From assembly GCF_032191835.1 (NCBI RefSeq), contig NC_083233.1, positions 3,162,001 through 3,226,000 on the forward strand: a stretch of DNA of 64,000 bases. Reading direction: 5' to 3'. The number at the start of each line of letters is the position of its first letter. Positions within the stretch are counted from its first letter, which is position 1. Below are positions 5,886 to 64,000 of this stretch, one piece after another. Below the pieces are notes generated by a model that was given only the letters and a program-made list of their open reading frames with translations, was not told the origin of the DNA and ran no database searches. Source of the stretch: Heteronotia binoei (taxonomy: Eukaryota). A program made the translations under genes and the position numbers.

Positions 5886-6477
5886 AGTATCTATTTCCAA
5901 ACCATGCCATAGACATCATTATGATGGACAGAGCCACATTTGGAGACAGGAGCAGACTGGTGGGGATCTCTGAAATCATAAAGGAAGTCCCAGAGTTGCA
6001 GAAAAATATGATTTTTTTTTAAAACCCAGATCATTAAAACTGAACAAAATGACATAAAACTCCTGTAGTTTAAAGGAAGGAATGCCTACAGAACTGGTAG
6101 TGGCTTTGAGGGGTTACTAGGCAACCAACACAATATTCCCAAGCCTTCCAAGCCTTTGTTTCCATACAGCAAGGTTGTGTGTGTAGGTTGCCAGCCTCCA
6201 GGTAGGATCTGGAGATCTCCCAATTTTACAACTAATCTCTAGCTGGCAATGATCAACACCCCTGGAGAAAATAGGACAACCCAAAAATACGTGGGAAATT
6301 AATGAAGTATCATGCACTAAAAATTACTACTATTGAACCTAATTCCAAAACTCTCTTAAAAGTGAAACAGTCCAAAGTTAGAATATATATCCCAATATTA
6401 TATATATTTCATAATTATCACAATAAATTCTAACAATCAAACATAAGTTATAACAACCAAAGTCTCAGTTCATTCAG

Positions 6478-7805
6478 AAGTCGGAAACTGACATGTTTCC
6501 GTGGTGTGAGGAAAAGCCCCCTTTTCCGAACATCGTAGTCCCCCGTATGGTTGCCAGGGCGCCTGGAGAAGTGAGCTCGCACACGTCTGGCCAGAGAGTG
6601 TGGGCAAAACTATCCAGGAATATAAGGGACTTATAGGTACAAGCCGCCACGAGTTATACAGGCACTCTAAACCGGTACAGAGTGCCTGATAACACAAACG
6701 GACATTTCCCCTGTCATCGCATGGGCCAGCCATGGAGCGGAAGAGTCTGTGCCGCCACGGAGCTATCCAGGCAATCGGTTATAAAGCGCTGGACATGGAA
6801 TCCACCGTGTAATGCTAACACCACTCGTAGCCATCTTCCCGCCAGGCTGAACTCCATCTCATTATAGTGGAAGGCTCACGTACCCACCAGATGTCACCTT
6901 TAGCCCACAAGCAGCCCGTCTGCCCCATGAATGGATTAACAACTCAACTGTCGCTCCTTTTGTCTAGCGAAAACCTGGACAAAGACTCCTACCCAGAAGA
7001 AGATAGGGAAAGAGGAAGACCATCTCCTGCCAGAGCCAAGTCTTTTGTCTAAACCGGGTGATACCTAGGTCAATATTTGATTCCCTATTATCACATTCCC
7101 AGATAAGTCCATCTAATCTTAAGTAGTTCCCACCCAGCGGCCACTTCCATCCTTCTTCCCGATTGTCACCTTGGAGCCGCCCCAGGGCCTGTTGCAACCT
7201 GGAAGTTCTTTCAGGTACACAGGACCCAGGCAAAGTTCATTGGTCAAAAGCAGGTACCCAATTAGGTGCCACCAAGGAACTTTCTATTGGCTCTGCAATA
7301 GTCCATCCCTCATGGTCACTGCAGAGCCTCCCCCTTCTCCTCCCTCATACCTCCCATTCCCTGAGGGCTCAAAGGAGTCCTTATAACCTGTGGACTAGCT
7401 ACCCACAGGTGTGCTTCTAGCAGTATCCCACCTTCCGCTGCATAGATCCATCCCCGATTCCTGATCAGTTTCGGGTCCCTTACCCACTTCCTCTCTGTCG
7501 CCATTGGAGCCTTCCTTGAAGACTACGATAGGTAATATTACCCTGTGTGTCTACCCTTTATGTTCCCCTATCGATCTATCTATATTTCTAGGACTGTATG
7601 TGTGATTGGATGTGTATTTTTATCTTGTATGGAAGACTATATTTTTCTTAATAAATTATAATTGGTTTTACTAATTTAGAGTTCCGTTATTTAAGCATCA
7701 CTCTCTGGTTGGTTAATCTTGTATACATTGGGAAAAGATCCCGAGTGAGCCAGGTGCCCACCTAACTAATTCCCCAACCTCGTTTTGAGGGCATTTCGGC
7801 TTACA
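6478..7805 (+). mobile_element. LTR-like sequence at the centre of the inverted repeat
   Basis: CpG-richer than the flanks, TTATAA ~7382, AATAAA 7650-7655, ends CGGCTTACA; no intact TG at the left end and no recognisable ORF. Confidence 0.45.
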
Positions 7806-7866
7806 GTGGGACTGAATGAACTTTGGTTGTTATAACTTATGTTTGATCATTAGAGTTTATTGTGAT

Positions 7867-8578
7867 CTCTAAAACTGGATGTATATCTTTTACACAATTG
7901 GAAAGACCAAGTACTTAACAGTACTGTTGAATTAATTAATATTTTGATTGCAGCAGTTAGAATGTCAATAGCTGAAAACTGGGTAAATTTTTCTTCACCT
8001 TTATTAGACCAATGGTTTCATAGGCTGTGGGAATTGTTTGTTCTGAATAAAATTGCATGCCATTCTTTTGATTTTTCGATTGAGCAATATGAACATCATG
8101 TGGTAGCTGTCTGGTTTCCTCTGGTAAAGTATTCAACTGAATATGACATTGTACCTAACCATTCATTCTACAAAAAGCTGATCTATTTTTGATCTGTATT
8201 TAAATTTTGTTTTGTCCTTGTTTACTGTGATTTTCATATGTCAGATTTGATGTATGCTAAATTGTTGACTAAATACTTTGGCCACCCAATAAGAAGGGAG
8301 CACTCACTGGAGAAGATCCTGATTCTGGGAAAGATAGAAGGCAAAAGAAGAAGGGGACAGCAAAAGATGAGATGGCTGGACAGTGTTACTGATGTAACAA
8401 ACACGAATTTGAGCAGACTTCAGAGGATGGTGGAAGACAGGAGGGCCTGGCGTGACTTTGTCCATGGGGTTGCAAAGAATTGGGCTTGACTGTGCGACTG
8501 AACAACAACAAAAATAGTTAACACTTTGTAATTATTTTGTGCAAAGGATAAATAAAATTTATTATTGTAAAAAAAGTA
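7867..8578 (+). mobile_element. L1/Tx1-like LINE 3' fragment
   Basis: ORF 7944-8192 (IAAVRMSIAENW...QWFHRLWE) resembles the L1 ORF2 C-terminus; AATAAA and A-rich tail; 9-bp TSD TATTGTGAT at 7858-7866 and 8579-8587. Confidence 0.75.
8270..8511 (+). mobile_element. RTE-BovB 3' fragment nested in the L1 fragment
   Basis: KYFGH...LEKILILGKIEGKRRRGQQKMRWLDSV, (CAA)n tail, imperfect TSD AAATTGTTGAC/AAATAGTTAAC. Confidence 0.9.
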
Positions 8579-8934
8579 TATTGTGATAATTATGAAATAT
8601 ATATAATACTGGGATATGTATTCTAACTTTGGACTGCTTCACTGTTAAGAGAGTTTTGGAATTAGATTCAATAGTAGTAATTTTAGTGCATTATATTTCA
8701 TTAACCCCTGAAGAAAATGGCTGCTTCGGAGGGTGGAGTCTATGGCAATGCACCATGCTGAGGCGCCTCCCCAAACCCCACCCTCTCTCGGATCCACCCC
8801 CAAAGTCCCCAGGTCTTTTCCAACTCCGACTGGCAACTCTGGGGAATAGCAGTGGACAGGAAGGCAAAACAGTCCCTCACTTATCTAGTATGATTTCTGT
8901 TGTCTTCTTCCCTTTCCTTAAAAAGGATAAGAAC

Positions 8935-9148
8935 TAGGATTGCCAGCCTCCAGGTAGGGCCTGGAGATCTCCCACTTTTACAACTGATCTCCATCTGGCA
9001 GAGATCAGCTGCCCTGATGAAAATGACTTTAAAGGGTGGACTCTGATACTGTACCATGCTGAGGCCCCTCCCCTCCCCAAACCCCACCCTCTGCCAGATC
9101 CACCCCCAAGGTCTCCATGGATTTTCCAGCTCAGAGCTGGCAACCCCA
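8935..9148 (+). mobile_element. Non-autonomous hAT element, TAGGGTTGCC family
   Basis: TIRs TAGGATTGCCAG / CTGGCAACCCCA; 8-bp TSD ATAAGAAC/GTAAGAAC. Confidence 0.8.
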
Positions 9149-9880
9149 GTAAGAACTAAAAATCAATCCTGGCTCCTCTAGGGTAGCATGGGAATGCAAT
9201 TTAAATCATTACAATGGCCACATAAAAGGATGGAGCATGATGGGTTCTTCGGATTTGTCAAGTTTACAAAGAAGCCAAACTATTTGGAGGGTCCAGTTTA
9301 ATCCCTCCCAGTTGCACAGCAAACACCATCGCCCACCAGCCCTTGTGCTTTTAGCCCATTCCAGATCTCAGAATCTGTTTTTTCTTTGACGTGTTATTTT
9401 TCTCAGTTCTGCTTTCTGTGGCAGCTGCCAGGAGACACTAGAAATAATGTTTCGATTTCATGCTCAATATTCTTGATGAAAGTCGAACATCAAAACCTCA
9501 GCAGGAAGCCTGCAGAAATCTAAGTGAGGATATCGCAGTGAGTGATTTCCAGAGAGCAAGAGGCATCGGCAGCATCTGTTTACGTGGGACCCCCCCCCCC
9601 CCCCCCGTTCTCTTGAGGTATAAATGGGAATAACAAGTCGAGTCTTGCTTTTTTTTATTGCAATCTCCATGTATGTTATCAATCTCCAACTTTTACTGTA
9701 ATGAATATTGATTTGTGCTGTTAGAAAACAACTGTTCATTCTATCTTCTGTTATGTCTTCTCCAGTGAACATGCAAGGAGATGAGATAGCAACATCGTAT
9801 TATCACTCCAAACACCTGCCCTCGCTTTTACTCTCTTCGGCAACAGGATTCTTATGGTATCATGAAGACTTGGATCCTTC

Positions 9881-62699: not shown

Positions 62700-63961
62700 A
62701 TGCCAGCAAAGTCATGTTAAAGATCCTACAAGCTAGGCTTCAGCAGTATGTAGATTGGGAACTACCAGAAGTTCAAGCTGGGTTTTGGCGAGGTAGAGGA
62801 AATAGAGATCAAATTGCCAACATTTGCTGGATTATGGAGAAAGCACGGGAGTATCAGAAAAACGTCTATTTCTGCTTCATTGACTATGCTAAAGCCTTTG
62901 ATTGTGTGGATCACAACAAACTGTGGCAAGTCCTTAAAGAGATGGGAGTACCAGACCACCTCACATGTCTCCTGAGAAACCTGTATAAGGGTCAAGAAGC
63001 AACTGTCAGAACGGGATATGGAACAACTGATTGGTTTAGAATAGAAAACGGAGTTCGACAAGGATGTATATTGTCACCCTGCTTATTTAATTTATATGCA
63101 GAGTACATCATGCGGAATGCTGGCCTGGATGAAGAACAAGCTGGAATTAACATTGCTAGGAAAAACATCAACAACGTCGGATATGCAGATGACACTACTC
63201 TAATGGCAGAAAGTGAGGAGGACCTAAAGAAGCTCTTGTTGAGAGTGAAAGAGGAGAGCACAAAAGCAGGCTTGAAACTCAACATCAAAAAAACTAAGAT
63301 CATGGCATCAGCCCCATCACACCTTGGCAAATAGAAGGGGAAGACATGGAAGTAGTGACAGACTTCACGTTTCTGGGATCCAAGATCACTGCAGATGGTG
63401 ACTGTAGCCATGAAATTAAAAGACGTTTGCTCCTTGGGAGAACAGCTATGGTGAACCTGGGCGGTAAAATAGAAAGTAGAGACATCACCCTGCCAACAAA
63501 AGTCCGTATAGTCAAAGCGATGGTATTCCCAGTAGTAATGTATGGCTGTGAGAGCTGGACCATAAGGAAGGCCAAGCGCAGAAGAATAGATGATTTTGAG
63601 ATGTAGTGCTGAAGAAGACTCTTGAGAGTCCCTTGGACTGCAAGAAGATCAGATCAGTCAGCCCCAAGGGAAATCAACCCAGACTGTTCCCTGGAAGGTC
63701 AGATGCTGAAGCTGAAGCTCAAACACTTTGGCCACCCAATGAGAAGGGAGCACTCCCTGGAGAAGATCCTGATGCTAGGAAAGACAGAAGGCAAAAGAAG
63801 AAGGGGACACCAAAAGAGGAGATGGCTGGACAGTGTTACTGATGTAACAAACAAGAATTTTAGCAGATTTTGGAGGAGGATGGAAGACAGGAGGGCCTGG
63901 TGTGACTTTGTTTATGGGGTTGCAAAGAATCGGACTCGACTGCGACTGAACAGCAACAACA
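62700..63961 (+). mobile_element. 5'-truncated RTE-BovB LINE
   Basis: FIDYAKAFDCVDHNKLW, GVRQGCILSPCLF, YADDTTLMAESEEDL; (CAA)n tail; AACTGCCT repeated at 62687 and 63962. Confidence 0.92.
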
Positions 63962-64000
63962 AACTGCCTAAACTAATAAGCCTGTGCTGTATTTTACCAT

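What the first reader, a model, noticed from the sequence alone, without database searches (positions are those of the whole stretch)
6273..8704. 2.4-kb insertion with ~180-bp inverted arms and a LINE-sized target duplication
Seen: a hAT MITE is split with a 14-15-bp direct duplication (ACCCCTGGAGAAAAT / ACCCCTGAAGAAAAT). Removing the later L1+BovB insert (7867-8578, TSD TATTGTGAT) leaves AT-rich inverted arms (6299-6477 vs 7812-7866 + 8588-8704, ~93% identical over the 123 bp counted by hand) around a 1.33-kb core. Established: TSDs of this length suit target-primed retrotransposition, while long TIRs suit DNA transposons, DIRS (no TSD) or Penelope-like elements. Inference: the combination fits no single class cleanly. 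It may be a Penelope-type or fold-back retroposition product, or an undescribed non-autonomous composite. Standard masking would break it into pieces and hide the architecture.
Basis: partly seen in the sequence, partly recalled or inferred. Interest (0 to 1): 0.7.

Follow-up and report, generated by a model that had tools for sequence, protein, structure and literature searches.

The report
Four jumping genes nested, no composite
The 2.4-kb structure is real but is not one element: it is a short head-to-head insertion, likely of a Penelope-like jumping gene, into which an unrelated 1.3-kb solo LTR and two LINE fragments later jumped; it is ordinary apart from the short element's marked preference for landing near the end of one small transposon.

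Summary
The arms, the 14-bp duplication and the LINE insert are there as described. The composite reading fails. The 'core' is a dispersed solo LTR (6505-7805, TGT...ACA) with its own 4-bp duplication GTGG. It sits inside the right arm, not between the arms. None of 19 other LTR loci has an arm nearby, and none of 54 arm loci holds the LTR inside the element. The arms are two head-to-head partial copies of a separate, roughly 590-bp non-coding family. Fourteen examined sites, this one included, have this layout, each joined differently; 11 have one short and one long (tailed) end, and 9 have a clear 10-19-bp duplication. This is the published insertion layout of Penelope-like elements, and this scan has noted it before in other genomes. 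No enzyme remnant or hammerhead was found, so membership rests on layout. Side result: the family's ends sit next to a MITE-terminal motif at 14 of 51 loci (about 1% of random places), as do 7 of 10 ends of an endonuclease-coding Penelope-like family, its likely helper. Low interest.

The parts
6184..6272 (+). Left part of the host MITE (about 200-220 bp family, ends TAGGGTTGCC...GGCAACCCTA; hAT-type likely)
   Evidence: 84% to the intact neighbour copy 8935-9024; profile match; 8-bp flanking duplications with 0-2 mismatches in 3 of 9 surveyed rows, 2 of the 9 being arm-family ends picked up in error
6259..6272 (+). Left copy of the 14-bp target duplication of the head-to-head insertion
6273..6477 (-). 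Left partial copy of the ~590-bp non-coding family; its 3' end points left and stops at the family's usual short end (reference position ~575)
   Evidence: 95% to L022, 91-94% to four others; end position
6478..6504 (+). 5' start of the right partial copy, cut off from the rest by the solo LTR; 6501-6504 is the left GTGG duplication
   Evidence: with the inserts skipped, the right copy aligns in one piece to L022, L027 and L032 (184, 180, 174 identities in 205 nt)
6505..7805 (+). Solo LTR, 1301 bp, TGT...ACA, of an LTR retroelement with lokiretrovirus-like organisation
   Evidence: 6082 first-look candidates, 40 scored, 37 other near-full-length places at 89-96% sharing these ends; exact 4-5-bp duplications at 15 of 19 other loci; one copy is followed by a primer-binding-site-like stretch and protease, RT, RNase H and integrase frames
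7806..7809 (+). Right copy of the LTR's 4-bp duplication GTGG
7810..7866 (+). Middle part of the right partial copy; 7858-7866 is the left 9-bp duplication of the LINE insert
7867..8269 (+). 3' fragment of a dispersed L1-like LINE (name from recalled C-terminal motif)
   Evidence: 156 candidates, 39 other places at 85-94%; one relative has a 408-aa open frame that runs into this stretch; 0 of 11 relatives' loci hold arm or LTR; no Pfam hit
8270..8511 (+). 3' fragment of an RTE/BovB-like LINE inserted in the L1-like piece, with a probable 11-bp duplication (8259-8269 / 8512-8522, 2 mismatches); name recalled
   Evidence: 89.8% to window 63721-63962; all 11 L1 relatives lack it and overlap by 9-11 bp across it; reads join 8267 to 8521
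8512..8587 (+). End of the L1-like fragment with AATAAA and A-rich tail; 8579-8587 is the right 9-bp duplication
8588..8704 (+). 3' part of the right partial copy; stops at reference ~548, 27 nt short of the left copy's end
8705..8842 (+). Right copy of the 14-bp duplication (8705-8718) and right part of the host MITE
   Evidence: resumes at MITE profile position 67; 77% to the neighbour copy 9012-9144

Best explanation
This is a stack of four insertions inside a MITE: first a 0.4-kb head-to-head insertion of a non-coding repeat family, likely copied in by a Penelope-like enzyme, then a solo LTR and two LINE fragments that landed in its right arm. Shown: the nesting, each layer with its own target duplication (14, 4, 9 and about 11 bp) and its own dispersed family. 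Inferred: a GIY-YIG endonuclease nicked both strands 14 bp apart; reverse transcription ran inward from both nicks on the family's RNA, starting at two sites about 27 nt apart; the two short cDNAs were joined in the middle. This gives two partial copies with 3' ends pointing outward and a one-sided extension. The family has no reading frame, so it would borrow the enzyme; the likely lender is a Neptune/Nematis-type family in the same genome that shares its target motif and two-site end. The LTR element then integrated at GTGG and would have recombined to a solo LTR. Nothing suggests the 2.4 kb moves as a unit or has a function.
For: Core is a separate family with sharp ends at 6505/7805, 4-5-bp duplications at 15 of 19 other loci and no arm at 19 of 19; reads from other copies leave the LTR at 6505 and 7805 into unrelated flanks. 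Skipping the inserts restores one continuous right copy. Arm family: ~590 bp, shared 5' start with no shared sequence upstream in 20 loci; 65 3' ends in 51 loci fall into two groups, 35 at 548-583 and 30 at 594-611. 14 head-to-head sites among 55 examined (54 loci plus the window), all with 3' ends outward and all with different inner joints; 11 of 14 pair a short with a long end, offsets 17-36 nt. Duplication score >=10 at 9 of 14 (10-19 bp) against 3 of 150 mismatched pairs. Published layout: inverted 5'-truncated pLTR, one-sided 30-40-bp tail, variable duplication (PMC3846280, PMC8557442, passages); cleavage and extension on both strands and two RT start sites that bound the tail, in vitro (PMC11167929, main text). 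The genome holds many GIY-YIG frames (150 scored of 645 candidates). One such family, N1, has a CxxCxxC motif before GIY-YIG, short and long ends about 40 nt apart, and 7 of 10 ends at the same MITE-terminal motif.
Against: No coding remnant: a profile of 70 natural endonuclease peptides from this genome found nothing in six frames of 57 arm-locus entries (some the same site fetched twice) and 3 window pieces (best E 1.2). No hammerhead: Rfam scan of 8 loci and a core-motif search were negative for the arm family. No long copy joined to a reading frame among the loci seen. Tail likeness to N1 is weak: 10 to 157 of 1000 shuffles reach the score for six N1 copies, and the whole-length alignment is at shuffle level. 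This site is atypical: its right end (548) lies 27 nt inside the usual short end, so it is not among the 11 short-plus-long pairs. Only 3 of 30 single-copy sites gave a duplication score >=10. 3 of 14 head-to-head sites have no detectable duplication and 2 score only 7-8.
Confidence: 0.85

Rival explanations
1. An undescribed composite element, arm-core-inverted arm, that moves as one 1.7-kb unit.
For: Arms flank the core symmetrically at first sight and one long duplication brackets everything. Penelope pLTRs can carry unrelated DNA between them (PMC3846280, passage).
Against: The core has LTR ends and its own GTGG duplication and splits the right arm 27 nt from its start. 0 of 19 LTR loci have an arm; 0 of 54 arm loci have the LTR inside.
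Confidence: 0.01
2. The arm family is a short retroposon of another class (SINE-like or L1-driven) and the inversion came from twin priming or later fold-back repair.
For: 10-19-bp duplications also fit LINE-type priming; no Penelope enzyme remnant or hammerhead was found; the fixed 5' start fits a short transcript.
Against: Both arms carry the element's 3' end, whereas L1 twin priming inverts upstream sequence (own knowledge). No poly(A) or simple-repeat tail; two end sites 17-36 nt apart, used one per side at 11 of 14 sites. The target motif is shared with a GIY-YIG family.
Confidence: 0.1
3. The arms are terminal inverted repeats of a DNA transposon, fold-back element or DIRS-type element.
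For: About 180-bp inverted arms at 94% identity.
Against: Arms are offset by 27 nt at the outer ends; most family copies are single and in one orientation; every head-to-head site has different arm lengths and joints; duplication length varies. No transposase or recombinase frame.
Confidence: 0.02
4. Misassembly of repeats.
For: All parts are repeats; the public reads were too thin to bridge the joints.
Against: Four independent duplications close in register, the arms differ at 11 of 174 bases, and both halves of the MITE rejoin at the duplication.
Confidence: 0.02

Closest known systems
Insertion unit of endonuclease-bearing Penelope-like elements: inverted 5'-truncated pLTR, one-sided tail, target duplication (PMC3846280, PMC8557442; passages seen)
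   Same: Two partial copies head to head with 3' ends outward, one-sided extension, variable-length duplication, no poly(A).
   Different: No reading frame and no hammerhead found; extensions here are 17-36 nt against 30-40 published; at this site both ends lie ~27-30 nt inside the family's usual pair.
Poseidon element of Anolis carolinensis studied in vitro (PMC11167929; abstract and main text read)
   Same: Two reverse-transcription start sites and extension on both strands predict the two end classes seen here.
   Different: That enzyme prefers AT-rich cuts and primes without homology to the target; this family prefers a GC-rich MITE-terminal motif that its short end resembles.
Non-autonomous Penelope-like families such as MRC1 (PMC8557442, passage) and animal retrozymes (bioRxiv 10.64898/2026.07.22.740005, passages)
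   Same: Short non-coding units thought to borrow a Penelope-like enzyme.
   Different: About 590 bp, dispersed rather than in tandem, and without a detected hammerhead, so not a retrozyme.
Solo LTR of a lokiretrovirus-like element (PMC7947760; passages seen)
   Same: LTR followed, at L005/L041, by a coiled-coil frame, a gag-position frame, protease, RT, RNase H, integrase and a downstream env-position frame.
   Different: The env-position frame had no Pfam or PDB match and no tree was built, so the lineage is a lead; that paper calls reptile copies highly degraded, while these LTRs are 89-96% alike.

Membership tests
Penelope-like element insertion | Inverted 5'-truncated copy next to a direct copy, 3' ends outward | tested here: met
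   This site and 13 others of 55 examined
Penelope-like element insertion | One-sided tail of about 30-40 nt from two end sites | tested here: met
   Family: two end classes, 11 of 14 sites pair short with long. This site: 27-nt offset, but shifted inward
Penelope-like element insertion | Variable-length target duplication | tested here: met
   14 bp here; 10-19 bp at 9 of 14 head-to-head sites; control 3 of 150
Penelope-like element (autonomous) | RT plus GIY-YIG reading frame | tested here: not met
   No frame or remnant in the arm family; it can only be a non-autonomous member
Penelope-like element (non-autonomous) | Sequence homology of the 3' end to an autonomous partner | tested here: inconclusive
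   Weak end-anchored likeness to family N1, 10-157 of 1000 shuffles; shared target motif; only 94 of thousands of endonuclease loci were fetched
Canonical Penelope-like element / retrozyme | Hammerhead ribozyme in the pLTR | tested here: not met
   Rfam E-value scan of 8 loci and core-motif search negative; the same motif search also missed five Neptune-type loci and found one Poseidon-type locus
Solo LTR | TG...CA ends, 4-6-bp duplication, dispersed copies, some attached to gag-pol | tested here: met
Lokiretrovirus | Env related to paramyxovirus fusion proteins; RT sister to retroviruses | tested here: inconclusive
   No Pfam or PDB match for the env-position frame; RT tree not built
DNA transposon / fold-back element | Terminal inverted repeats flush with a fixed-length duplication | tested here: not met
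   27-nt offset, variable arms and duplications
DIRS | No target duplication; tyrosine recombinase; internal complementary region | tested here: not met
   14-bp duplication present; no such frame
hAT MITE (host) | Short terminal inverted repeats with 8-bp duplication | tested here: inconclusive
   Terminal repeats present; 8-bp duplication with 0-2 mismatches in 3 of 9 rows; none visible at this copy; transposase partner not sought

The most novel reading that the evidence does not exclude
Neptune-type Penelope-like elements in this genome, and the non-coding family they drive, home in on the end of a MITE, and the RNA's short end mimics the DNA just before the cut, so pairing between RNA and target helps choose the site. 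That would be a Penelope-like element specialised on another transposon and a counter-example to homology-free priming seen in vitro.
Probability: 0.25. Interest if true: 0.55.

Novelty: new member of a known kind. Interest (0 to 1): 0.2.

Why it matters
The structure as flagged matters little: it is a clean case of nested repeats in which a solo LTR poses as the core of an inverted-repeat element. The by-product has some value. How Penelope-like elements pick and prime their targets is still open, and a family with many dated insertions at one motif, two end sites and a candidate helper enzyme gives a ready substrate set for cleavage and priming assays.

Tried and rejected
Endonuclease remnant in the arms: a 21-nt match to the end of one GIY-YIG frame (L080) suggested it; the profile test was negative (best E 1.2), so it is treated as chance. 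Hammerhead: not found. Autonomous parent: 25 loci from a GIY-YIG family search and 70 from a protein search (30 returned, 40 picked by hand from the 150 listed) gave no significant DNA match to the arm family. Tail homology to N1: no signal in an unanchored search (top z 1-2), weak when end-anchored. Read support: one search found no run holding half the words; three raw-read runs of one sample gave about 1x or less on the unique flank and no joint specific to this site, so neither misassembly nor an empty allele could be tested. Env-position frame of the LTR element: no Pfam or PDB hit. The reading that the left duplication is really the element's tail: the 14 bp match the MITE profile, so they are target; only the three bases before them (seen in 1 of 26 contexts) resemble the tail, left unexplained. 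Literature on MITE targeting by Penelope-like elements: three searches listed nothing on it by title or abstract start; passages of two listed papers did not describe it; Repbase and subscription papers were not searchable, and no supplements were read.

Full report
Observation. The window is G000:C11:3162001-3226000. The duplication, the inverted arms and the LINE insert are at the stated places. The duplication is 14 bp with one mismatch (6259-6272, 8705-8718). The arms share 163 of 174 aligned bases once the LINE insert is skipped. Both halves of the host MITE rejoin at the duplication.

The core is a solo LTR. Searched alone, 6478-7810 gave 6082 first-look candidates, of which 40 were scored; 37 other places match nearly full length at 89-96%, starting near query base 28 and ending near 1328, that is window 6505-7805. 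This stretch starts TGT, ends ACA and is flanked here by GTGG on both sides. Of 19 other loci fetched, 13 have an exact 4-bp and 2 an exact 5-bp duplication, 1 has one mismatch, 2 have none, and 1 (L005) is followed by a primer-binding-site-like stretch. Downstream of L005 lie natural frames for protease, RT, RNase H and integrase. The order of frames resembles lokiretroviruses (PMC7947760, passages), but the env-position frame had no Pfam or PDB match. None of the 19 loci has an arm within 1.5 kb.

The LTR sits inside the right arm. Family copies read straight through the GTGG site. With the LTR and the LINE insert skipped, 6474-8704 aligns as one piece to three relatives (174-184 identities in 205 nt). 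So the original insert was about 0.4 kb: a left copy (6273-6477, minus strand) and a right copy starting at about 6478.

The LINE insert is independent too. 7867-8270 has 39 other scored places at 85-94%. All 11 fetched relatives lack the BovB-like piece and overlap by 9-11 bp across it, which points to an 11-bp duplication with two mismatches; none holds arm or LTR. The names L1 and BovB rest on recalled C-terminal motifs; Pfam gave nothing.

The arm family. Three searches (124-176 candidates each, 40 scored each) gave 54 distinct loci after I dropped repeats of the same site by hand. The unit is about 590 bp, has no long frame, and has a shared 5' start with no shared sequence upstream in 20 loci. 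Its 65 3' ends in 51 loci fall in two groups, 35 at reference 548-583 (mostly 573-581) and 30 at 594-611. Fourteen of 55 sites, this one included, have two copies head to head with 3' ends outward; all inner joints differ, and 11 pair a short with a long end, 17-36 nt apart. Nine of the 14 have a duplication scoring 10 or more, 10-19 bp long; 3 of 150 mismatched pairs did; only 3 of 30 single-copy sites did (44 sites with bounds set by hand, 11 left out). No arm locus holds the LTR inside the element; two have LTR pieces outside it.

Mechanism. Published Penelope-like insertions have an inverted truncated pLTR, a one-sided 30-40-bp tail and a variable duplication (PMC3846280 and PMC8557442, passages). 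The Anolis Poseidon enzyme cuts and extends both strands and starts at two RNA sites that bound the tail (PMC11167929, abstract and main text). I infer the same here: two nicks 14 bp apart, two short cDNAs running inward, joined at 6477/6478. The nesting is shown; the enzyme and the priming steps are inferred.

Against this. No endonuclease remnant (best E 1.2), no hammerhead and no copy joined to a reading frame were found. This site is atypical: the left end is at the usual short site and the right end 27 nt further in, so the offset is kept but shifted. The three bases before the left duplication occur in 1 of 26 MITE contexts and match the family's tail; I cannot explain them.

Target preference, a side result. 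With a 13-bp MITE-terminal core taken from the window, 19 of 65 ends (14 of 51 loci) have a 10-of-13 match within 22 nt, against 0.94% of 4809 random places and 0 of 38 LTR flanks. Adding a second core chosen after seeing the data gives 30 of 65 ends (21 of 51 loci), 67 of 4809 and 1 of 38. Two ends of one site are not independent. This site itself lies inside the MITE and matches only 9 of 13. The genome has many GIY-YIG frames. One family, N1, with a CxxCxxC motif before GIY-YIG (Neptune/Nematis type by PMC8557442), has two end sites about 40 nt apart and 7 of 10 ends at the same motif (L154 left out as the source of the second core). Its tail is only weakly like the arm family's (10-157 of 1000 shuffles for six copies; 122-987 for twelve other loci). 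N1 or a relative is the likely helper, not a proven one. The arm family's short end reads like the MITE bases just before the usual cut, which raises pairing-assisted priming; this is untested. Three paper searches listed nothing on such targeting, but Repbase and closed papers were out of reach.

Assembly. Public reads were too thin to bridge any joint. Four duplications closing in register make a misassembly unlikely.

Earlier notes of this scan describe head-to-head Penelope stubs in other genomes; none matched this sequence or this genome. They agree with my reading, which was recorded before I saw them, and are not counted as support.

Verdict. Observation confirmed, composite reading rejected. 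A new non-coding family with Penelope-type insertion habits, buried under three later insertions. Interest 0.2.

Noticed in passing
L024, L033, L045, L046, L054, L055, L057-L060, L095, L097 and others; N1 loci L153, L156, L158, L159, L161, L163, L167: The arm family and an endonuclease-coding Penelope-like family both insert next to the terminal motif of the same MITE type far more often than chance.
   Followed up: partly
L005 and L041 (G000:C21:7904000-7914915, minus strand): A provirus-like copy of the LTR family with a coiled-coil frame, gag-position frame, protease, RT, RNase H, integrase and an env-position frame, broken into several frames; organisation resembles lokiretroviruses. The LTR family is abundant and 89-96% alike. 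A further LTR copy lies about 9 kb past the env-position frame (L210).
   Followed up: partly
window 6256-6258: Three bases before the left duplication differ from the MITE norm (1 of 26 contexts) and match the arm family's tail end; possibly an aborted start at the long site.
   Followed up: partly
L003/L004 (C21) and L048/L049 (C5): Pairs of near-identical loci 13 kb and 42 kb apart, flanks included: local duplications or assembly duplicates.
   Followed up: no
L077, L078, L087, L092: Poseidon-type GIY-YIG loci with 150-325-bp inverted copies nearby at 94-96%, the same head-to-head habit; L082 carries a hammerhead core motif in its 3' region.
   Followed up: partly
window 8935-9150: A second, intact copy of the host MITE 90 bp to the right, with an 8-bp duplication (1 mismatch).
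   Followed up: yes
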